Positions 1-7,394 of a stretch of 7,394 nt of DNA are shown here, one piece after another (position 1 is the stretch's first letter; each line of letters starts with the position of its first letter). Location of the stretch: the IMG/VR virus record IMGVR_UViG_3300036763_000250, one strand, 5' to 3'. The translations under genes were made by a program, and so were the position numbers. The stretch comes from a virus. A model generated the notes under the pieces. It ran no database searches. It was not told where the DNA came from and saw only the letters and a list, made by a program, of their open reading frames with translations.

Positions 1-121
1 AGAAGTGCGTGACGTTTCGTTCGCACAGATGACCGCTGAGCAAAAAGCGCAACTAACTAGTTCGCTGCTCGGTTTCTTTTGCCTGATCTTCGTACTGATA
101 AAACTCAGGCGTATTACTTAA
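1..121 (+). CDS. 3' part (duplicate copy) of the small membrane protein gene annotated at 7257-7388
   Basis: Codons starting at nt 2 read EVRDVSFAQMTAEQKAQLTSSLLGFFCLIFVLIKLRRIT*. This is identical to the end of the 7179-7388 ORF. The stop TAA lies at 119-121 and overlaps the coat gene SD. Confidence 0.5.
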   Translation, partial: EVRDVSFAQMTAEQKAQLTSSLLGFFCLIFVLIKLRRIT

Positions 122-127
122 GGAGCT
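1..127. repeat. Terminal direct repeat copy 1 (identical to 7268-7394), a circularisation overlap
   Basis: A base-by-base comparison of 1-127 with 7268-7394 shows 127/127 identity. 127 is the largest default k-mer of common de Bruijn assemblers. Confidence 0.95.
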
Positions 128-1925: not shown

Positions 1926-2239
1926 TGCCGGCAGTTATCGCGTTATTCCTACGTTTACTCGGGGCGTCTCTTGTTCCGCTAGGTTGGCGGTTGTTGCGTG
2001 GTCTTGGCTTTGCCGCGTTCACGTTTACCGGCATTCAATTGATGATGGATCAGGCCAAGGACTACGTATTTCAGCAGCTCCTTTCCTTGCCTTCTGAGTG
2101 GGTGCAGATGATTGGTCTGCTCAAACTCGATGTCTGTTTCAACATCTTGTTTTCAGCCTATGTTGCCCGTGCCGTCCTGTGGGGCATGAATCAAGCGACA
2201 GGCAGTAAATCCGGCGTTCGCTGGGGAGGAGGGGCCTAA
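1925..2239 (+). CDS. g6p-like minor coat / membrane protein (Ace position)
   Basis: The 104-aa protein has several hydrophobic segments. It lies between the g3p-like and Zot-like genes. Its start overlaps the g3p stop (TGATG) and its stop overlaps the zot start (TAATG). Confidence 0.6.
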   Translation: MPAVIALFLRLLGASLVPLGWRLLRGLGFAAFTFTGIQLMMDQAKDYVFQQLLSLPSEWVQMIGLLKLDVCFNILFSAYVARAVLWGMNQATGSKSGVRWGGGA

Positions 2240-3453
2240 TGCTTATTCTGAGAACTGGCCTGCCGGGCTCTGGAAAAACGCTCAACACCATCCGCGAAAT
2301 TGAGCTTGAACATGGTCCAGATCCTAAGAACCCTGCAAAGGAGCTTCGGACGGTTTACTACTACGGAATTCCCGACCTCGACTTAGACAAGCTGGGTTGC
2401 AACTGGGTCGAATTCGACACGCCGGATGAGTGGTACAACCTGCCAGACGGCTCCGTCATCGTCATGGACGAGGCTCAGCGGGTTTTTGGTGCGCAGGATG
2501 GCCGCAAGGCACGACCCGAGAAGGTCGCCCGCTTCGAGACTCACCGTCACCAGGGCTTCGATATCCACCTGATCACGCAGCACCCCAGCTTGATCATGAG
2601 CCACGTCAGGAAGCTGGTCGGCAAGCACATCAACATGTACCGGCCTTACGGTGGAAAGCGCCTGCTGCGGCATGAATACGAGTTTTGTATCGACAGCCCG
2701 GAGAAGCGCAGTCAGTTCAAGCTTGCCCAGGAGCGCCGTGTAAAGCTCGATGCGAAGTACTTCGGTGTCTACAAGTCCGCCACGGTGCACACGCACAAAT
2801 TCAAGTTGCCAAATTACGTGTGGTACATCCCGCCGCTGGTTCTGTTCATTGGCGCAGCTGCCGTATATGTGACGTCGCTTTACAGTCCAAAGGATGCGCC
2901 TCCGATCGCTGATGCTGCCGTTGATTCGGTTCCTGTTGCGGGTTCCGATTTGAATGCAAAGCCCACTGCAGTATCTGCACCAGGTGCTCAGCAAGCTCCG
3001 TTGACGCCAGAGCAGTACGCCGAAAGCTTTAGCCCCAGGATTTCAGATGTGCCGTCCAGCGCTCCGCGTTATGACAGCCTGACAGAGCCGAAGTCCTTCC
3101 CGCGGCTTACCTGTGTGTCCAGTTTTGACCCTCTGCTGATCGACAAGCTTTATCGTCGTGGTGCGCCGGTTGGTCAGACTGATGGCAGGCAGTACGCTTG
3201 CCAGTGCTACACGCAGCAAATGACGCGCCACGACACCAGCGCGGAATTCTGTATGTCTGTGGTTGAGAATGGCTACTTTGATGACACGCTGCCTGACAAG
3301 CTCGCTGCCACGCAGCACGTGTTCAACTCAGATCGACAACAACCGGCTGCTGCAACAGGGCGAGTGCCCGCAGCCCAGATGCCGCAGCCGGCAGCCAACT
3401 ACGTCCCGGCGGTAACGGTGGTTAATTCTGGCAAGCCTGGGCACCTTTGGTAA
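2239..3453 (+). CDS. Zot-like assembly ATPase (g1p family)
   Basis: SD GGAGGAGG lies upstream. The N-terminal Walker A motif is GLPGSGKT (aa 7-14) and the Walker B-like motif is VIVMDEAQ. A single TM helix (WYIPPLVLFIGAAAVYVTSLY, about aa 195-215) is followed by a Pro/Ala-rich, Cys-containing periplasmic C-terminal domain. This is the standard Zot/pI topology and position. Confidence 0.9.
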   Translation: MLILRTGLPGSGKTLNTIREIELEHGPDPKNPAKELRTVYYYGIPDLDLDKLGCNWVEFDTPDEWYNLPDGSVIVMDEAQRVFGAQDGRKARPEKVARFETHRHQGFDIHLITQHPSLIMSHVRKLVGKHINMYRPYGGKRLLRHEYEFCIDSPEKRSQFKLAQERRVKLDAKYFGVYKSATVHTHKFKLPNYVWYIPPLVLFIGAAAVYVTSLYSPKDAPPIADAAVDSVPVAGSDLNAKPTAVSAPGAQQAPLTPEQYAESFSPRISDVPSSAPRYDSLTEPKSFPRLTCVSSFDPLLIDKLYRRGAPVGQTDGRQYACQCYTQQMTRHDTSAEFCMSVVENGYFDDTLPDKLAATQHVFNSDRQQPAAATGRVPAAQMPQPAANYVPAVTVVNSGKPGHLW

Positions 3454-3462
3454 AAGCCAATG

Positions 3463-3551
3463 CTTCGCATAATGCGTAACGTTACGTTAAGTCGGCTCCG
3501 GAAAATGCTGTAAGCTCCGGGGGCGATTTAGACGTAACGTCCATTATGCGA
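3463..3551. other. Putative XerC/XerD-dependent attP: two dif-like sites in inverted orientation, foldable into a forked hairpin on the + ssDNA
   Basis: Site A (+ strand, 3464-3492) reads TTCGCATAA-TGCGTAACG-TTACGTTAAGT. Site B (reverse complement of 3525-3551) reads TCGCATAA-TGGACG-TTACGTCTAAAT. Compare dif, GGTGCGCATAA-TGTATA-TTATGTTAAAT. The pairings are 3465-3474/3542-3551, 3479-3487/3532-3540 and 3488-3494/3524-3530. An internal loop falls at the central-region position. Confidence 0.6.
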
Positions 3552-3778
3552 TGCCCCTCCTAGACCTCCCTGAATATCTGTTACGTGACGCACGACTCTA
3601 TGCCCCTGGTCGTGATGATCTGGGTGCTGTCCTGCATTTGCTCGAGGACTACGGCCGGCTTGTCGGTGAGCTTCGCCAGGTGCGCCGCCGGCTAGCGCAA
3701 TTGGACGAGGAGGGCGCTGCCTTGGATGCCCGTCTAGCGGCCCTTCAGGACGCCTGCCGGGCGATTCTGGAGCTTTAG
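3551..3778 (+). CDS. Hypothetical 75-aa protein, predicted helical / coiled-coil (Leu/Arg/Ala/Asp-rich)
   Basis: This is the only long ORF in the interval. First codon positions are G-rich, as in coding sequence, and there is a heptad-like LxxLxxxL pattern (ELRQVRRRLAQLDEEGAALDARLAALQDA). No recognisable SD precedes it. The ATG abuts the attP-like arm. The stop TAG (3776-3778) overlaps the stop of the convergent gene. Confidence 0.45.
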   Translation: MPLLDLPEYLLRDARLYAPGRDDLGAVLHLLEDYGRLVGELRQVRRRLAQLDEEGAALDARLAALQDACRAILEL

Positions 3779-4311
3779 ACGCACCCGTCTTCCACGAGCC
3801 TGTATTGCTTGTTGCTCCCTGCGATCTTGTTATCGATAACTCGATCTAGCTGCCGGCTCGCTTCCTCTCCGTAGATCCCCGCAACCAGGTTCTGCCATTT
3901 CCCCGACCCAGTCCGCGCCTGTAGCGTGTAGGTCTTGTCCTCGGGCAGCTCTGCTGCTGGTTGATCGCGGTGGCGTTTCACCTTTGCCGGTTTTTCGTTA
4001 CGTTGCGCTAGCTTTGTATCGGCCTCTTGGATCATTCGCGCCTGCTCTACGATTACCCGGGCGTACTTCCTGTTTTCGGCCTTCGCCTGGTCTAGTTCCT
4101 TGGCTAGTGAGTCGATTTGTGCTGCCAGGGCGCGCGCGTCTTCCCATGTCGTTCCGGTCTCTGGTTTTTCGTTACGTTGCGCTTTTTGCCGTTCGCGGTA
4201 CAGCCGCTGCCGCTCGGCATTGCTGAGCGCCTGGCCTGTGGCCGGACGCCCGCGACCGCGCTTCTCGTCCAGGGGCAGGGATTGGGTTTGCTTTTCCAGG
4301 TGGTCGATCAT
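3775..4311 (-). CDS. Hypothetical 178-aa protein with a basic AT-hook-like N-terminus (KRGRGRPATG...AERQRLYRERQ), a central coiled coil and a small C-terminal domain; putative DNA-binding
   Basis: The preferred start is ATG 4311 (MIDHLEKQ...), with GGAG 8 nt upstream. The ORF-track start at 4371 would lie upstream of the TATAAT box. The protein has a charged helical middle, contains AQRNEKP twice exactly 58 aa apart, and has no TM segment. I do not recognise a family. Confidence 0.65.
   Translation of the reverse strand: MIDHLEKQTQSLPLDEKRGRGRPATGQALSNAERQRLYRERQKAQRNEKPETGTTWEDARALAAQIDSLAKELDQAKAENRKYARVIVEQARMIQEADTKLAQRNEKPAKVKRHRDQPAAELPEDKTYTLQARTGSGKWQNLVAGIYGEEASRQLDRVIDNKIAGSNKQYRLVEDGCV
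3989..4009. repeat. Exact 21-bp repeat, copy 1 (GGTTTTTCGTTACGTTGCGCT) inside the 178-aa gene
   Basis: It is identical to 4163-4183, 174 bp (58 codons) away. On the minus strand it contains the core CGTAACGAAAAAC. Confidence 0.9.
4163..4183. repeat. Exact 21-bp repeat, copy 2 (GGTTTTTCGTTACGTTGCGCT) inside the 178-aa gene
   Basis: It is identical to 3989-4009. A third copy of its 3' 9-mer, CGTTGCGCT, lies in the 5' UTR at 4328-4336. Confidence 0.9.
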
Positions 4312-4344
4312 GGTGTCAGCTCCATTGCGTTGCGCTATGGAGTA

Positions 4345-4350
4345 ATTATA
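4345..4350 (-). promoter_or_regulatory. Candidate -10 box (perfect TATAAT on the minus strand) for the 178-aa gene
   Basis: The reverse complement of ATTATA at 4345-4350 is TATAAT, 33 nt upstream of ATG 4311. The -35 region is weak (TGGTGT) and is overlapped by iteron 1. Confidence 0.45.
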
Positions 4351-4354
4351 GTTA

Positions 4355-4441
4355 CGTAACGATAAATACACCAGCGTAACGTAACGATAAATACGACCGT
4401 TCGTCGGCTATTTGTAACGCCATGCGCGTAACGACAAATCA
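4355..4441 (+). repeat. Three direct iteron-like repeats CGTAACGA(T/C)AAAT(A/C) at 4355-4369, 4380-4394 and 4427-4441, plus an extra CGTAACG at 4375
   Basis: CGTAACGATAAATAC occurs twice exactly, 25 bp apart. CGTAACGACAAATCA is a third, degenerate copy. All lie immediately upstream of, or overlapping, the putative promoter of the minus-strand 178-aa gene. Confidence 0.8.
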
Positions 4442-4548
4442 ACTCGGATTCGCCCCGAGCCCGGCCCCAGGCCGCCCCTTTACTGTCCAACCCGCCTTTC
4501 GCTCTCCGTGGTCATAGGCTCAGCCGCGTGCGGTACACCCGCACATTT

Positions 4549-4625
4549 GCGATCGGCCCGGAGGGGCGAGGGGCGAAGCCCTGCCTTTGGGTGCCTCGAT
4601 CTGGCGCCCGGAGGGGTGGGGGTGC
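4549..4625 (+). repeat. Imperfect ~25-nt direct repeat containing GCCCGGAGGGG (4556-4566 and 4606-4616), G-tract rich
   Basis: Copy 1 is GCGATCGGCCCGGAGGGGCGAGGGGCG and copy 2 is TCGATCTGGCGCCCGGAGGGGTGGGGGTG. No ORF of 60 aa or more is present on either strand. Confidence 0.7.
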
Positions 4626-4639
4626 TGTAACACCCCCAC
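4616..4639 (+). other. Perfect 9-bp GC-rich hairpin (GTGGGGGTG ctgtaa CACCCCCAC)
   Basis: The arms are exactly complementary, the loop is 6 nt, and TTTGG follows on the + strand. Confidence 0.75.
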
Positions 4640-4643
4640 TTTG

Positions 4644-4664
4644 GTATGCAATCGCATACTTTTT
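4644..4664 (+). terminator. Terminator-like hairpin on the + strand (GTATGC aatc GCATAC + TTTTT)
   Basis: The 6-bp perfect stem has a 4-nt loop and is followed by 5 T. The T-run follows the stem only in + orientation, although the nearest gene (XRE) is on the minus strand. Confidence 0.5.
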
Positions 4665-4666
4665 GG

Positions 4667-4996
4667 CTATCTGAGTGCTTCTTGCTCGTAGCCGAACAGG
4701 ACTCCTTTTAGAGCAATTTTTGCCTGATTCCTGATATCTGCGGGCAGTGCATCGAAGCGCTTCAAAATCGGTGCTATGTCTTCGGATACTGACCGTTCTT
4801 GTTCGTCTAGCAGTAACTCATCAGTCGTTGTCCCGAGTACTTTCGCTAGGGCTACAACGGTGTCACCTGCTGGAATAGCCTTGCCGGCCTCGTATGACAC
4901 GTAGCTTGATTTGCTGACGTGGGCAGCCTCCCACACATGGCGTTGAGTCAGCTTTTTAGCCTTTCTGCACGCCTTGAGGTTCTCGGCGATTGTCAT
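4667..4996 (-). CDS. XRE-family (Cro/CI-type HTH) transcriptional repressor; candidate phage lysogeny/immunity repressor (RstR / Pf4r position)
   Basis: The HTH_3-like signature is LKACRKAKKLTQRHVWEAAHVSKSSYVSYEAGKAIP. The gene is divergent from the Rep gene. The preferred start is ATG 4996, with GAGGA 7 nt upstream (109 aa). The alternative ATG 5023 would add 9 aa. Confidence 0.85.
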   Translation of the reverse strand: MTIAENLKACRKAKKLTQRHVWEAAHVSKSSYVSYEAGKAIPAGDTVVALAKVLGTTTDELLLDEQERSVSEDIAPILKRFDALPADIRNQAKIALKGVLFGYEQEALR

Positions 4997-5023
4997 GGCT
5001 CTATCCTCTTGATCGGTGTTCAT

Positions 5024-5154
5024 TTCCCGACCTTAATCGCTGGCTGCTTATACAGTGCCGAAATCCTGATACATTTCTGCTTGCTTTCTGATAGCTGCAA
5101 ATCCTATGATCCTGTCCATCAAGTATTGGTTTCCTGATATTGACAGGGATTGGC
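5024..5154. promoter_or_regulatory. Divergent promoter/operator region between repressor and Rep
   Basis: The repeated motif T(C/T)CTGATA occurs at 5064-5071, 5086-5093 and 5132-5139. The related AAATCCTaTGAT is at 5099-5110, compared with AAATCCTGAT at 5061-5070. The candidate + strand promoter has -35 TTGCTT (5081-5086), an 18-nt spacer and -10 TATGAT (5105-5110). The candidate minus-strand -10 is TATAAG (5052-5047). Confidence 0.55.
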
Positions 5155-6279
5155 ATGTTCTACGATTGGATCAAGGCATATCAGGATTATGACTACGACC
5201 TTCCGAAGGTTGGTGACGTCATCTGTCGCCGCTTTGATTCCGAGACCGAAGAGCTCCTGTCAACGAGCGTTCCTGCCTTCTTTGCAGAGGGTAGCTACTG
5301 CACCACGTTCCGCATTCATGTGTGCGGGCGCCGCATCACAGTTGATGGCAATGCCTCCCGGTTAAATCGCCTGGATAACGTCTTCGGCATCGAACGTCTC
5401 GACGACTGCATGAAGGTGATTAACGCGCTGCTCGCTGAGTACGGTCTGCCGCCTATGACCAAGTGCAAGAACATCCAGCGCCTTCAAGACGGTTCGTCGA
5501 TTGCCGACGGCGCGGTTTTTCAGCGCCTCGACCTGACCAGTAATTTTTATGTAGGGCAGGGCAACGAAAGGGCGTTTCTCCGGGGTATTTCGAGCCAGCG
5601 TTTCCGTAATTCGATTGCCTATCTGTACCCCGATGGCAATACATGCGTCTGGACCCCGAAGGGCGGTGAGAAGGCCGGCTCTCTGGTTTATCCCGGTAAT
5701 TACAACAAAGCGGCTGAGTTAGACGCTCACCTGTTGCCCAAGGTCAAACGTACTTTTGGCGAAGATTCTGACGAATTCCGCTACGTGCGGGAGTTGCGCG
5801 ATCACTGTAGAGCGGTCGGCATGGTGCGTTCCGAACTCAAGTGCCGTTCGGAATATTTGAAGAGGGAAGGGCTCCGGTTTTGGGGGCTTTTCGATGAACA
5901 GAAACTTGTGGAAATCCACAGGGGGTTTCTCATGGTTGGCGAGAAGTGCGAGATCAATAATTTTGATCAACTGACAGTGGCGGACGAGCTGCTGGCCAAG
6001 GGCATTTGTGAGCACCGTAAAGCTGCAATGACTACCGCTGGTTATTCGGCGCTTTGGCAGTCTGGTCAGCAGTTTGACTTCGAAACTTCGGCTGTTAAGA
6101 AGCACCGTGCGCGCTTACGGCAGATCGGTATTGATATCAAGTTGCCGTTCGATGCTACTCGCCACGGTGTTGTTTTCATCCGCAACGTCCGCGAAATCGA
6201 GCGTGTTTTCGAGCTGCCGACTCCGGCGTTCTATCGTCCTGCCGTGATCCCGCGTCACCTGCAATTGGTGGCTGCATGA
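5155..6279 (+). CDS. Rolling-circle replication initiation protein (gene II / RstA / Phage_CRI-like)
   Basis: The 374-aa protein starts at ATG 5155, with AGGGA 5 nt upstream. The ORF-track TTG 5140 is less likely. The N-terminal FYDWI and the block ITVDGNASRLNRLDNVFG match, from memory, the IDWL and GNxSK..(G)HNVFG signatures of filamentous-phage replication proteins. It is the first gene of the + strand operon, next to the repressor as in CTXphi. Confidence 0.8.
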   Translation: MFYDWIKAYQDYDYDLPKVGDVICRRFDSETEELLSTSVPAFFAEGSYCTTFRIHVCGRRITVDGNASRLNRLDNVFGIERLDDCMKVINALLAEYGLPPMTKCKNIQRLQDGSSIADGAVFQRLDLTSNFYVGQGNERAFLRGISSQRFRNSIAYLYPDGNTCVWTPKGGEKAGSLVYPGNYNKAAELDAHLLPKVKRTFGEDSDEFRYVRELRDHCRAVGMVRSELKCRSEYLKREGLRFWGLFDEQKLVEIHRGFLMVGEKCEINNFDQLTVADELLAKGICEHRKAAMTTAGYSALWQSGQQFDFETSAVKKHRARLRQIGIDIKLPFDATRHGVVFIRNVREIERVFELPTPAFYRPAVIPRHLQLVAA

Positions 6280-6452: not shown

Positions 6453-6769
6453 GAACGGTCAGTTTCCAGGGTACTCAGCTATCTGCTGGCCAGCGCCGTC
6501 GCCTTCAGGTCGAACGCTCAATTGTTGCTAACCACTATGCGCCTGTTGATTGGGACGCCTTCCGCGATCAGGTCAACAGCCGCATGTTTGTCGGCCCTCC
6601 GGCACCTATTGAAATTCGGCCAGAGTTCCAACCTGACCGACAGGCCGAACGTTTCTGGCGACTCGCTGCTGAGTTCAAGCGTTACGGCTATTCAGAGATT
6701 AATCAATGTGGCACGCCCTTTGTCGGTGATGCCTTCGGCTGCGGCCAATCAATAGAGGTGTATGTATGA
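6449..6769 (+). CDS. Hypothetical 106-aa protein (RstB position)
   Basis: ATG 6449 has GAGGTG 6 nt upstream. ATGA overlaps occur at both ends (6449-6452 and 6766-6769). I recognise no motif. Confidence 0.6.
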   Translation: MRTVSFQGTQLSAGQRRRLQVERSIVANHYAPVDWDAFRDQVNSRMFVGPPAPIEIRPEFQPDRQAERFWRLAAEFKRYGYSEINQCGTPFVGDAFGCGQSIEVYV

Positions 6770-7125
6770 AAATCCTTCGTGGCTTCGTTCAAGGTGTTGT
6801 TCCTATGGGCAGTCCTGAAAAGCCTTGGGCACTTGTCGGTATTAACAGCATCAGCAAAAACCGTAACGGATTCGATGAAACTGACCTTATTGAATTTATG
6901 GTTGCGGGCAAGCAATACAAAGACGGTTTGCACAACGCTTATCGTCAACTAGAAGGCACTGAAGTGTTCGCACCTTACTCCGACGAAATCGATACTTATA
7001 ACGGTAAGTCTCGTATCCGTTATGGCCTCCTGGGTGTCCCTGTTCGCCTTCAAGAAGCTCGCCCAGTTCAAGAAGCCCGACCCTCTTCCGCCACACAACA
7101 GCAACCTGCTGCTAAGGCTGGTTAA
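6766..7125 (+). CDS. Putative ssDNA-binding protein (g5p analogue)
   Basis: The 119-aa protein has SD AGAGGTG 5 nt upstream. It sits just before the small TM protein and coat genes. A globular body is followed by a flexible Pro/Gln/Ala-rich tail with the tandem QEARP-V-QEARP. From memory, the Pf1 gene 5 protein also has a P/Q-rich C-terminal tail. The assignment rests mainly on position. Confidence 0.45.
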   Translation: MKILRGFVQGVVPMGSPEKPWALVGINSISKNRNGFDETDLIEFMVAGKQYKDGLHNAYRQLEGTEVFAPYSDEIDTYNGKSRIRYGLLGVPVRLQEARPVQEARPSSATQQQPAAKAG

Positions 7126-7256: not shown

Positions 7257-7388
7257 ATGACGCTTCAAGAAGTGCGTGACGTTTCGTTCGCACAGATGAC
7301 CGCTGAGCAAAAAGCGCAACTAACTAGTTCGCTGCTCGGTTTCTTTTGCCTGATCTTCGTACTGATAAAACTCAGGCGTATTACTTAA
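7257..7388 (+). CDS. Small membrane protein (g7p/g9p-like minor coat or PfsE-like), start uncertain
   Basis: The ORF ends at TAA 7386-7388 (equivalent to 119-121), just before the coat gene. The C-terminal hydrophobic helix plus basic tail is LLGFFCLIFVLIKLRRIT. Possible starts are ATG 7257 (43 aa), ATG 7296 (30 aa) or upstream TTG/GTG 7179/7191. No clear SD precedes any of them. Confidence 0.5.
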   Translation: MTLQEVRDVSFAQMTAEQKAQLTSSLLGFFCLIFVLIKLRRIT

Positions 7389-7394
7389 GGAGCT
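7268..7394. repeat. Terminal direct repeat copy 2 (identical to 1-127)
   Basis: Same as copy 1. Confidence 0.95.

What the first reader, a model, noticed from the sequence alone, without database searches (positions are those of the whole stretch)
3551..4311. Orphan two-gene cargo module at the ctxAB-equivalent position, convergent with overlapping stop codons
All core inovirus functions are accounted for elsewhere in the genome. Between zot and the repressor, the slot where CTXphi carries cholera toxin, lie two genes with no recognisable family. One is a 75-aa helical/coiled-coil protein on the + strand. The other is a 178-aa protein on the minus strand with a GRGRP AT-hook-like basic N-terminus, a long charged coiled coil and a small C-terminal domain. 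They converge and share the tetranucleotide TTAG at 3775-3778 (TAG on +, TAA on -). Their transcripts must therefore overlap or collide at the 3' ends unless terminated very tightly. The region looks more GC-rich than the structural genes, which suggests separate acquisition. It could be a maintenance, partition, regulatory or host-modulating module. Function is open.
Basis: partly seen in the sequence, partly recalled or inferred. Interest (0 to 1): 0.7.

Follow-up and report, generated by a model that had tools for sequence, protein, structure and literature searches.

The report
Phage DNA-binding regulator plus attP-linked gene
The two "orphan cargo" genes belong to widespread filamentous-phage families: one is very probably a DNA-binding regulator that sits on repeated sites at its own promoter, and the other is a conserved small protein of unknown function fused to the phage's chromosome-integration site.

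Summary
Both ORFs and their 4-nt TTAG stop overlap are real. They are not orphans and not an obligate pair.

**ORF178 (3775-4311, minus strand)**
- It belongs to phrog_10506, the "AT-hook protein downstream of pI/zot" family found in Pseudomonas, Ralstonia and Cupriavidus inoviruses and in tiny plasmids.
- Its layout is an RGRP motif, a basic helix, a coiled coil and a small, fast-evolving C-terminal domain.
- The 7-mer CGTAACG occurs 11 times in the window (0.69 expected). Nine copies lie in 3475-4433. One copy forms a palindrome that abuts the gene's own TATAAT, and two lie inside its own coding sequence.
- Across 74 homologues, two helix residues co-vary with the repeated 7-mer: N..RQ with CGTAACG, D..RA with CGTGACG, P/A..KQ with GGTAACG. 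The 7-mer class does not follow Rep or the XRE repressor.
- Best reading: an operator-binding, self-repressing regulator.

**ORF75 (3551-3778, plus strand)**
- It belongs to phrog_13909, is under purifying selection, and is predicted to be helical.
- Its start codon lies in or next to the XerC arm of a CTXphi-type attP hairpin (3462-3554). A relative is integrated at dif in tandem arrays.
- Its function is unknown.

The slot between attP and the repressor does vary among relatives, so the cargo reading is partly supported. Both genes are new members of known but uncharacterised families.

The parts
3462..3554 (.). attP: two inverted dif-like sites (site 1 about 3463-3492 on the plus strand, site 2 about 3525-3554 on the minus strand). 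They fold into a forked hairpin in the plus-strand ssDNA. The XerC-type arms read TTCGCATAA and the XerD-like arms read TTACGTTAAGT / TTACGTCTAAAT.
   Evidence: ssDNA fold of -31.9 kcal/mol, z = -7.45. The hairpin is conserved in 24 relatives. In P. segetis the last zot of a tandem array is followed by ...GGCTTCGCATAA|TGTATATTATGTTAAAT, which I read from memory as the Pseudomonas dif consensus.
3551..3778 (+). ORF75: a conserved 75-aa acidic helical protein (phrog_13909). Its ATG lies 5 nt after the TTATGCG of the site-2 XerC arm and has no Shine-Dalgarno sequence.
   Evidence: purifying selection; AlphaFold2, pLDDT 92.6; start codon in or next to the XerC arm in all 24 loci; small stand-alone family.
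3775..3778 (.). TTAG, shared by the two stop codons (TAG on the plus strand, TAA on the minus strand).
   Evidence: The same 4-nt overlap or similar tight packing is seen in relatives.
3775..4311 (-). ORF178: RGRP (AT-hook-like, residues 20-23), basic recognition helix 31-47, coiled coil 56-105, and a beta-beta-alpha-beta C-terminal domain 127-175 (phrog_10506).
   Evidence: The recognition-helix classes co-vary with the repeated 7-mer.
3989..4009 (+). Operator copy inside the ORF178 coding sequence (GGTTTTTCGTTACGTTGCGCT). On the minus strand it encodes AQRNEKP, just before the C-terminal domain.
   Evidence: An exact 21-nt repeat. The internal sites keep their position in relatives.
4163..4183 (+). 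Operator copy inside the ORF178 coding sequence (+135 from the ATG), identical to the 21-mer at 3989-4009. It encodes AQRNEKP directly after the basic helix.
   Evidence: In the CGTGACG class the +135 site lies in the same codon frame (CGT GAC G = R-D, against CGT AAC G = R-N).
4312..4337 (-). 5' leader of ORF178: GGAG 8 nt before the ATG, partly inside a small stem-loop (CCATAGCGCAACGCAATGG). Relatives keep the stem through sequence changes.
   Evidence: Read. Not tested further.
4345..4360 (-). Core promoter and primary operator: TATAAT (4350 to 4345 on the minus strand), directly abutted by the 10-bp palindrome GTTACGTAAC (4351-4360).
   Evidence: The layout [ATTTAT][palindrome][-10-like hexamer] is the same in the four operator classes examined (TATAAT in three, TATAT in the Aeromonas plasmid), each with its own palindrome.
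4351..4441 (-). Iteron array upstream of ORF178: three full copies of (T-rich)CGTTACG at 4351-4369, 4376-4394 and 4427-4441, plus a partial GTAACG at 4414.
4441..4461 (-). Terminator-like hairpin with a T run, upstream of the ORF178 promoter. It probably ends the XRE-repressor transcript, so ORF178 would have its own promoter.
   Evidence: a consensus scan only.

Best explanation
**Setting.** The interval lies in the attP-proximal variable slot of a 7,267-nt circular Pseudomonas-type inovirus. The phage carries no integrase-like ORF. By inference from relatives, it integrates at the host dif site through XerCD from a folded ssDNA attP, as CTXphi does. The slot holds two independent genes.

**ORF178** is a sequence-specific DNA-binding regulator.
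- Inferred: it dimerises through the 56-105 coiled coil.
- Inferred: helix 31-47 reads the CGTTACG half-sites, and the invariant RGRP contacts the adjoining T-rich ATTTAT.
- Shown: the sites lie at and upstream of its own -10 box, and twice inside its own coding sequence.
- Inferred: occupancy of the palindrome that abuts TATAAT shuts off its own promoter. The upstream and internal copies could add cooperativity, looping or a roadblock against the converging plus-strand operon.
- Speculative: operator-like palindromes in or beside attP, and the structured intergenic region next to the iterons, suggest a further role in maintenance, replication control or Xer recombination of the replicative form.
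- The fast-evolving C-terminal domain is probably a partner-binding module.

**ORF75** is a real, strongly conserved, acidic helical protein. It travels with attP rather than with ORF178, Rep or zot.
- It shows no DNA-site signature.
- My best guess (about 0.3) is that it acts on a conserved host protein, most plausibly the XerCD-dif machinery.
- Some dif-integrating relatives lack it, so it is dispensable.
For: **ORF178 and its sites**
- Site enrichment: CGTAACG occurs 11 times against 0.69 expected, with 0 of 200 shuffles reaching 11. Nine of the 11 copies lie in 3475-4433.
- Five copies share the T-rich flank. Two exact 21-mers lie inside the coding sequence.
- The promoter layout [ATTTAT][palindrome][-10-like hexamer] is kept while the palindrome changes. 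It is GTTACGTAAC in the window, GGTAACGTTAC in L012-type phages, CGTGACGCGTCACG in Pf 42-1, and CGTCACATGTGACG in an Aeromonas plasmid.
- Covariation over 74 distinct genes: helix N..RQ has CGTAACG dominant in 27 of 31, with none in another class. Helix D..RA has CGTGACG dominant in 15 of 15. Helix P/A..KQ has GGTAACG dominant in 13 of 27, CGTGACG dominant in 2, and 12 below threshold.
- The de novo top 7-mers agree with these classes.
- RSS1 ORF10 (helix TNAERQA) has all 4 CGTAACG copies of its genome within 5002-5486, around the gene.
- Pf 42-1 has 8 of its 9 CGTGACG copies within 127-696.

**Controls**
- L027 (CGTAACG class) has a Rep 98% identical to that of L021, 96% to L019 and 94% to L030, and all three are in the GGTAACG class.
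- The XRE repressor is absent from L006, L011, L027 and L032, which still carry CGTAACG iterons.
- Loci with ORF75 but no ORF178 homologue have no iterons.
- There are no CGTAACG sites in the XRE-Rep intergenic region of the window.

**Structure:**

**Integration site:**

**ORF75:**
Against: - No binding, transcription or phenotype data exist for either family.
- No sigma-70 -35 element passes the scan at the ORF178 promoter. Activation rather than repression is therefore possible.
- The gene and its iterons are physically linked, so part of the covariation reflects cassette co-inheritance. The concerted change of 5-10 sites, however, needs a cassette-encoded binder.
- About half of the P/A..KQ genes fall below my 7-mer count threshold.
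- The CGTTACG inside attP is largely explained by the XerD-like arm TTACGTTTAAT, which is also present in loci that lack ORF178.
- No known fold or family supports any biochemical function: Pfam, NCBIfam and PADLOC are all below cut-off, and Foldseek E-values are 0.0056 or higher.
- For ORF75 the proposed host or Xer partner is pure inference. Related dif-integrating phages that form tandem arrays lack it.
Confidence: 0.6

Rival explanations
1. Replication or partition reading. ORF178 would primarily be a copy-number, replication or segregation factor of the replicative form, in the manner of RepB or KfrA. The iteron array next to the structured intergenic region would then be an origin-control or centromere-like site, and autoregulation would be secondary.
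For: - The GenBank annotation of the Pf 42-1 homologue is 'replication regulatory protein RepB'.
- There are weak hits to NF038291, a plasmid replication DNA-binding protein (E 0.018). The Aeromonas plasmid homologue weakly hits PF10723 RepB-RCR_reg (E 0.022).
- The N-terminal module is common in 2-4 kb plasmids. One member is labelled 'OriV' by its source.
- The iterons adjoin an intergenic region that is strongly structured as ssDNA (z = -3.86).
Against: - All family hits are far below their curated cut-offs.
- There is no partner NTPase.
- There are no sites at the rep promoter.
- The iteron class is independent of the Rep type.
- This reading is compatible with the best explanation rather than exclusive of it.
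Confidence: 0.3
2. The two genes would be accessory cargo that modulates the host, in the slot where CTXphi carries ctxAB.
For: - The slot varies among relatives. In one P. aeruginosa element it holds a 110-aa protein whose N-terminus reads like a signal peptide (my reading of the sequence, not a tool result) and an unrelated repeat protein.
- GC content is modestly elevated.
- ORF75 has no DNA-site signature, is acidic, and is very conserved, which fits a conserved host target.
Against: - ORF178 has its own operators at its own promoter. Its family sits in the post-zot position across three host genera.
- On my reading of the sequences, neither protein has a signal peptide or membrane segment.
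- Both families are confined to small replicons.
Confidence: 0.15
3. The two genes would form an interacting pair. This could be protein-protein antagonism, or mutual control through convergent, overlapping transcription.
For: - About three quarters of ORF75-bearing loci have a convergent ORF178 homologue with overlapping or abutting stop codons.
- There is no terminator between them.
- ORF75 is acidic and ORF178 is basic.
Against: - They assort independently.
- ORF75 sequence groups do not follow the ORF178 specificity classes: L022 and L027 are in a different class from L028 and L030.
- The ORF178 coiled coil is hypervariable while ORF75 is conserved.
Confidence: 0.12
4. The iterons would be bound by Rep, the XRE repressor or a host factor, as part of the origin. 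ORF178 would be unrelated to them.
For: - The iterons lie near the structured intergenic region, which may contain origins.
- The 7-mer resembles the XerD-like arm of attP.
Against: - Near-identical Reps (94-98%) go with different iteron classes.
- The iterons are present without XRE and absent without ORF178.
- Helix residues and the 7-mer change together in 74 genes, including in RSS1 and an Aeromonas plasmid.
Confidence: 0.06

Closest known systems
'AT-hook motif protein downstream of pI' of Cupriavidus/Ralstonia filamentous prophages (PMC10011098). Includes Ralstonia phage RSS1 ORF10 and PHROGs 10506, 9651, 6334 and 23279.
   Same: - Same family by HMM.
- Same N-terminal MxD...RGRP...AERQ..YR module, and the same place after zot.
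- RSS1 ORF10 also has GTAACG-type repeats upstream of and inside its gene.
   Different: - In the window the gene is on the opposite strand and converges on ORF75.
- The C-terminal domain differs.
- The family has no experimental characterisation. The paper only postulates H-NS-like silencing, whereas the evidence here points to specific operators.
Eukaryotic bZIP / bHLH-zip transcription factors (for example the Pap1/Yap and CREB types; recalled from memory)
   Same: - A basic helix followed by a dimerising coiled coil.
- Short ACGT-centred palindromes built from TTAC/GTAA or TGAC/GTCA half-sites.
- The N31...R39 spacing resembles the bZIP N-x7-R signature.
- Specificity is set by a few helix residues.
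   Different: - No Pfam bZIP hit at E up to 1.
- The model breaks the helix at 48-55, around Pro50.
- An RGRP arm and a T-rich flank are added.
- The similarity is one of working principle, not of family membership.
Plasmid replication-associated DNA-binding proteins: Pfam PF10723 RepB-RCR_reg and NCBIfam NF038291 rep_pAB02_ORF2
   Same: - Small-replicon proteins with an N-terminal DNA-binding part followed by a helical part.
- Weak sequence similarity.
- The GenBank name of the Pf 42-1 homologue.
   Different: - Scores of 15.4 against an 85-bit cut-off, and 15.2 against 21 bits.
- The window protein itself gives no PF10723 hit.
CTXphi attP / XerCD-dif integration (integrative mobile elements exploiting Xer, IMEX)
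   Same: - Two inverted dif-like sites that fold in plus-strand ssDNA.
- No integrase.
- A relative sits at dif with a crossover on the XerC side, in tandem and hybrid arrays.
   Different: - This concerns the flanking feature, not the two genes.
- Here a conserved gene (ORF75) starts inside the XerC arm of the second site. I know of no CTXphi counterpart.

Membership tests
phrog_10506 and allies (inovirus 'AT-hook protein downstream of pI', RSS1 ORF10-like) | Significant match to the family HMM | tested here: met
   phrog_10506 at E 3.4e-21, covering residues 21-188 of the 198-aa frame. Also phrog_9651 at 1.1e-07 and phrog_6334 at 9.5e-07. RSS1 ORF10 and the Pf 42-1 protein hit the same set of families.
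phrog_10506 and allies (inovirus 'AT-hook protein downstream of pI', RSS1 ORF10-like) | N-terminal RGRP motif followed by the A..A..R...YR helix, with the gene placed after zot/pI | tested here: met
   R20, G21, R22, P23, A28, A32 and R39 are invariant in 33 homologues. The gene is the second after zot here and the first after zot in RSS1 and Pf 42-1.
AT-hook (Pfam PF02178) | R-G-R-P core flanked by basic residues, with a match to the Pfam model | tested here: inconclusive
   The KRGRGRP core is present, but the window protein gives no PF02178 hit at E up to 1. RSS1 ORF10 scores exactly at the cut-off (17.4 bits). The T-rich ATTTAT next to every operator class fits minor-groove binding, but that is inference.
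bZIP (Pfam bZIP_1 / bZIP_2) | Match to the family model | tested here: not met
   No bZIP family was listed for the window protein at E up to 1, or among the 25 families shown for the 33 homologues.
bZIP (Pfam bZIP_1 / bZIP_2) | Uninterrupted basic-region-to-zipper helix | tested here: not met
   The AlphaFold2 monomer model has helix 31-47, a break at 48-55, and helix 56-105. A monomer model without DNA cannot settle this.
bZIP (Pfam bZIP_1 / bZIP_2) | Dimer binding to short palindromes of two half-sites | not testable with these tools
   The palindromes GTTACGTAAC, GTAACGTTAC and CGTGACGTCACG are present. Binding itself needs experiment.
RepB-RCR_reg (PF10723) / rep_pAB02_ORF2 (NF038291) | Score above the curated cut-off | tested here: not met
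   NF038291 scores 15.4 bits against 85. PF10723 is hit only by the Aeromonas plasmid homologue, at 15.2 bits against 21.
phrog_13909 (ORF75) | Significant match to the family HMM over its full length | tested here: met
   E 1.4e-29, residues 4-75 against profile positions 10-81 of 81. There are 209 homologous clusters.
Ribbon-helix-helix / VapB-type small DNA binders (considered for ORF75) | Match to an RHH family model or to a solved RHH structure | tested here: not met
   No RHH family was found for ORF75 or for 10 distant members, even at E up to 10. A profile of the N-terminal 42 positions finds no RHH chain in the PDB. Foldseek hits to FitA have probability 0.07-0.10.
CTXphi-type attP (the flanking feature) | Two inverted dif-like sites that pair in the packaged strand | tested here: met
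   A hairpin at 3462-3554 with z = -7.45. It is conserved in 24 relatives.
CTXphi-type attP (the flanking feature) | Prophage at dif with a junction on the XerC-arm side | tested here: met
   Shown for a relative, not for this genome. In the P. segetis array the right end reads GGCTTCGCATAA|TGTATATTATGTTAAAT.

The most novel reading that the evidence does not exclude
The ORF178 family would be an uncharacterised, Pfam-less class of small-replicon transcription factors found in inoviruses and tiny plasmids. It would work like a prokaryotic bZIP/bHLH-zip fitted with an AT-hook arm. A two-residue recognition code (N/Q, D/A, P/K) would reprogram the half-site. Operators would be written into the protein's own coding sequence at fixed positions, and would also sit in or beside attP, coupling regulation to Xer recombination. 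ORF75, whose start codon is supplied by or abuts the XerC-binding arm, would be a phage-encoded modulator of XerCD-dif.
Probability: 0.2. Interest if true: 0.65.

Novelty: new member of a known kind. Interest (0 to 1): 0.42.

Why it matters
Integrase-less, dif-integrating Pseudomonas inoviruses were only recently recognised (PMC10675462). Their regulation is unknown apart from a presumed XRE repressor.

**A testable recognition code.** The post-zot 'AT-hook' protein has specificity classes that co-vary with its operators. That gives a directly testable code: residues N31 and Q35 against base 4 of the 7-mer. It also offers a handle on how these phages control the minus-strand side of the genome, and possibly replicative-form maintenance or hetero-immunity. 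The same module occurs in Ralstonia phages that alter plant virulence and in many tiny plasmids.

**ORF75.** It is among the most conserved proteins of this phage group and is physically welded to attP. That makes it a reasonable candidate in the search for phage factors that touch the Xer machinery.

**Limits.** None of this is a new kind of system, and all of it is inference from sequence.

Tried and rejected
- **Family searches.** Pfam, NCBIfam and PADLOC scans of both proteins gave only sub-threshold coiled-coil noise.
- **Sequence searches of solved structures.** PDB searches with family profiles found only coiled coils.
- **Fold searches for ORF178.** Foldseek against the PDB gave a best E of 0.12, a PaaB-like match to the C-terminal domain. 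Against BFVD, the C-terminal domain resembles many 50-70-aa uncharacterised phage proteins, with E of 5.6e-3 or higher, which says nothing about function.
- **Fold search for ORF75.** Nothing useful; best E was 2.
- **RHH/VapB idea for ORF75.** The resemblance came from my reading of the distant members' N-termini. HMMs did not support it.
- **The 85-aa protein in the same slot of another P. segetis element.** It is not related to ORF75 (hhalign probability 0.3).
- **Remote search for ORF75.** The profile search of 1.84 billion representatives found 40 matches: about 35 stand-alone proteins of about 45-100 aa, plus a few long proteins with many short matched stretches that I read as coiled-coil noise. 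There were no informative fusions.
- **Last protein search, on the N-terminal module.** It found 536 proteins, with no Pfam domain and no informative names except one 'OriV' label among the 120 listed.
- **Rfam.** No hit in the window.
- **Rep or XRE as the iteron binder.** Rejected.
- **ORF75 conserved only as DNA.** Rejected.
- **CGTAACG copies in attP as ORF178 sites.** I first read them that way. Most are explained by the XerD-like arm, which is also present in loci without ORF178. ORF178 binding at attP therefore stays a hypothesis.
Full report
**What the window is.** The first 127 nt recur at 7268-7394, so the window is one circular genome of 7,267 nt with a terminal overlap. The gene order is:

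- major coat gene, pIII-like gene (429-1925), pVI-like gene (1925-2239) and Zot (2239-3453)
- the finding's two ORFs
- a 355-nt intergenic region
- an XRE/HTH_3 repressor on the minus strand (4667-5023)
- a G2P-type Rep (5140-6279), small ORFs and a probable ssDNA-binding protein

The only nucleotide-level relatives among deposited phages are Phage blackswan219-1 (81% identity over zot) and a 68-nt stretch of Pseudomonas phage Pf 36-2. Both belong to the recently described integrase-less, repressor-bearing Pseudomonas inoviruses (PMC10675462).

**Checking the observation.** Both ORFs exist at the stated coordinates and share TTAG at 3775-3778.

- The 178-aa reading from the ATG at 4311 is the right one. 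Homologues start there with MID. A GGAG lies 8 nt upstream of that ATG, and the longer GTG frame would run through the promoter.
- GC content is 0.62 for ORF75 and 0.59 for ORF178, against 0.54 for the genome and 0.505-0.574 for the structural genes. The excess is real but modest.
- The word 'orphan' is wrong. ORF75 matches phrog_13909 (E 1.4e-29) and ORF178 matches phrog_10506 (E 3.4e-21), both of unknown function.
- There are 209 and 243 homologous clusters respectively. They lie mostly on 7-8 kb contigs and in Pseudomonas chromosomes.

**ORF75 is a real gene.**

- Among 23 distinct alleles, variability at codon positions 1/2/3 is 0.32/0.19/0.54. Uncorrected pN/pS is 0.41, against 1.07 and 1.81 in the other two frames.
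- Relatives are 60-91% identical to the window's ORF75. That is usually more than Zot (24-70%), Rep (38-78%) or XRE (28-75%) in the same loci.
- The family is small and always stand-alone. There are 40 matches among 1.84 billion representatives: about 35 proteins of about 45-100 aa, plus a few long proteins with many short matched stretches that I read as coiled-coil noise.
- The model is a short helix (8-17), a conserved turn, and a 52-residue helix (23-74), with pLDDT 92.6.
- The protein is acidic: 14 D/E against 10 K/R by my count from the sequence.

**The feature next door explains the position.**

- Residues 3462-3554 form a strong imperfect hairpin as ssDNA (-31.9 kcal/mol, z = -7.45). 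It is made of two inverted dif-like sites with TTCGCATAA arms.
- All 24 relatives examined keep it.
- In the Pseudomonas segetis chromosome a close relative sits in a tandem array of three copies, next to a hybrid element. The last zot is followed by GGCTTCGCATAA|TGTATATTATGTTAAAT. This reads as the phage XerC arm joined to the central region and XerD arm of dif. I recognise the Pseudomonas dif consensus from memory.
- P. aeruginosa chromosomes carry similar arrays.
- This matches the CTXphi style of XerCD integration.
- In all 24 loci the ORF75 start codon is either the ATG inside the site-2 XerC arm (TTATGCG) or an ATG 5 nt after it.
- I see no Shine-Dalgarno sequence, and the ATG is paired in the hairpin.
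- The upstream ORF (zot or a small ORF) always ends 0-32 nt from the XerC arm of site 1 at the hairpin base, within 22 nt in all but one locus. Translational coupling is therefore possible, but it is only an idea.

**ORF178 carries its own binding sites.**

- CGTAACG occurs 11 times against 0.69 expected. Nine copies lie in 3475-4433.
- When oriented, five copies share a T-rich flank, (T-rich)CGTTACG.
- Three of these lie upstream of the gene. The proximal one forms the 10-bp palindrome GTTACGTAAC (4351-4360), which directly abuts a perfect TATAAT (4350 to 4345 on the minus strand).
- The other two are exact 21-mers inside the coding sequence (3989-4009 and 4163-4183). Both encode AQRNEKP.

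**Covariation with the recognition helix.**

- In relatives the layout [ATTTAT][palindrome][TATAAT] is kept while the palindrome changes with residues of the predicted helix 31-47. S-N-A-E-R-Q-R goes with GTTACGTAAC. T-P-A-E-K-Q-R goes with GGTAACGTTAC. T/S-D-A-E-R-A-R (Pf 42-1) goes with CGTGACGCGTCACG.
- I then fetched 64 more loci and scored 74 distinct genes:

| Helix class | Dominant 7-mer near the gene | Count |
|---|---|---|
| N..RQ | CGTAACG | 27 of 31 (no other class; 3 of the 4 misses are truncated contigs) |
| D..RA | CGTGACG | 15 of 15 |
| P/A..KQ | GGTAACG | 13 of 27 (CGTGACG dominant in 2; 12 below the count threshold, most carrying two GGTAACG copies) |

- An unbiased top-7-mer count gives the same picture.
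- The pattern extends to Ralstonia phage RSS1. All four CGTAACG copies of its genome lie within 5002-5486, around ORF10, against 0.49 expected.
- It extends to Pf 42-1, where 8 of 9 CGTGACG copies lie in 127-696.
- It extends to a 2.8-kb Aeromonas plasmid, which has ATTTAT, CGTCACATGTGACG and TATAT before the homologous gene.
- The internal site at +135 sits in the same codon frame in two classes: CGT AAC G gives R-N and CGT GAC G gives R-D. The peptide there therefore follows the DNA site.

**Controls.**

- The iteron class does not follow Rep. L027 (CGTAACG class) has a Rep 98%, 96% and 94% identical to the Reps of L021, L019 and L030, which are all in the GGTAACG class.
- It does not follow the XRE repressor. 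XRE is absent from L006, L011, L027 and L032, which still have the iterons. L012 and L002 have XRE proteins 65-69% identical to the window's but belong to the other class.
- Loci with ORF75 but no ORF178 homologue have no such repeats.
- Because sites and gene are adjacent, co-inheritance contributes to the association. The concerted change of many copies still requires a cassette-encoded binder. ORF178 is the only protein common to all cassettes.

I put the claim that ORF178 binds these sites at about 0.85. I put the claim that it represses its own promoter at about 0.65. The operator lies in the spacer directly upstream of the -10, but no -35 element passes the scan.

**How ORF178 probably works (inferred).**

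- The invariant RGRP pairs with the invariant ATTTAT, suggesting a minor-groove arm. The RSS1 homologue scores exactly at the Pfam AT_hook cut-off.
- Helix 31-47 reads the 7-mer, with positions 31 and 34/35 setting specificity.
- The 56-105 helix (pLDDT 96-98) dimerises. It is hypervariable in sequence and length between relatives.
- The C-terminal beta-beta-alpha-beta domain evolves fast or is replaced. It resembles only small uncharacterised phage proteins.
- In working principle this resembles a bZIP or bHLH-zip factor on ACGT-core palindromes. One Pf 42-1 site is CGTGACGTCACG. Membership is not supported: there is no Pfam hit and the modelled helix is interrupted.
- Weak sub-threshold similarity points to plasmid replication DNA-binding proteins. 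This matches the 'RepB' label given to the Pf 42-1 protein.
- A 2023 paper had already noted an 'AT-hook motif protein' downstream of pI in Cupriavidus and Ralstonia prophages, and guessed at H-NS-like silencing (PMC10011098).

**Are the two genes a module?**

- About three quarters of ORF75-bearing loci have a convergent ORF178 homologue. The overlaps are 4, 17, 18 or 27 nt, or there is a gap of 1-2 nt.
- P. aeruginosa arrays and Pf 42-1 have the ORF178 homologue abutting attP with no ORF75.
- L025 and L031 have ORF75 with unrelated small ORFs.
- One P. aeruginosa element has an unrelated 75-aa repeat protein and a 110-aa protein whose N-terminus reads like a signal peptide, which is my reading rather than a tool result.
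- ORF75 sequence groups do not track the ORF178 classes.

The two genes are independent tenants of it.

**Open points.**

- Each operator class has an operator-like palindrome in or beside attP. The window has CGTAACGTTACG in site 1. Class-2 phages have GGTAACGTTAC in site 1. Class-3 phages have CGTGACGTCACG 2-10 nt from the XerC arm.
- The TTACG core is also part of the XerD-like arm in loci without ORF178. Binding at attP is therefore unproven.
- No intrinsic terminator separates the two genes. The attP hairpin and bound ORF178 may be what limits the converging transcripts.
- The function of ORF75 remains a guess. Its constancy beside attP and its high conservation suggest a conserved host partner, possibly XerCD. 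It is dispensable in related phages.

**Verdict.** The finding is real but over-read. The two genes are members of known, uncharacterised inovirus families, in a variable attP-proximal slot. For one of them, comparative evidence now gives a specific and testable mechanism.

Noticed in passing
window 1-127 and 7268-7394: The first 127 nt are repeated at the end. The window is a complete circular genome of 7,267 nt with an assembly overlap.
   Followed up: yes
window 3462-3554; L032 17455-17490; L033 1800-1910: A CTXphi-type attP hairpin. In P. segetis a close relative forms a three-copy tandem array at dif, next to a hybrid element. That element has a different repressor/Rep module and a partial duplication, reminiscent of CTX/RS1 arrays.
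   Followed up: partly
window 4436-4666 (especially 4581-4648): The intergenic region is strongly structured as ssDNA (z = -3.86). It contains a GGGGGTGCTGTAACACCCCC hairpin that is 91% identical to Pf 36-2 and recurs in relatives with different Rep and repressor types. It is probably an origin or packaging element.
   Followed up: partly
window 4441-4461 (-) and 4643-4660 (+): Two terminator-like hairpins. The minus-strand one lies between the XRE gene and the ORF178 promoter. The plus-strand one would end any plus-strand read-through only after it had crossed ORF178 in antisense.
   Followed up: no
window 4319-4337 (-): A small stem-loop in the ORF178 leader (CCATAGCGCAACGCAATGG) overlaps the GGAG. 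Relatives keep a stem of the form CCATG...CATGG with different inner sequence.
   Followed up: no
L006, L011, L016, L019, L021, L022, L027, L002 (upstream of the ORF178 homologue): In these relatives an extra small ORF of about 85-90 aa lies between the operator/promoter and the ORF178 homologue. The minus-strand unit is therefore sometimes a two-gene operon.
   Followed up: no
L033 1950-2400: A different P. segetis element has, in the ORF75 slot, an unrelated 85-aa protein (phrog_8031). It is surrounded by its own GGTAC(T/C)AAAA repeats.
   Followed up: partly
L034 (Aeromonas media plasmid pAeme1, 2,785 bp) 745-805 and 174-186: The N-terminal module of ORF178 occurs as proteins of about 60-115 aa on many 2-4 kb Aeromonas plasmids. 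The promoter layout is the same, ATTTAT + palindrome (CGTCACATGTGACG) + -10.
   Followed up: partly
window 6680-6686 and 6862-6868: Two further CGTAACG copies lie inside the 112-aa ORF and the ssDNA-binding-protein gene. Neither has the T-rich 5' flank of the five full iterons. They may be chance or weak sites.
   Followed up: partly
window 3578-3591: GTTACGTGACGC lies inside the 5' end of ORF75. It is a hybrid of the class-1 and class-3 half-sites and is not conserved as DNA in relatives.
   Followed up: no
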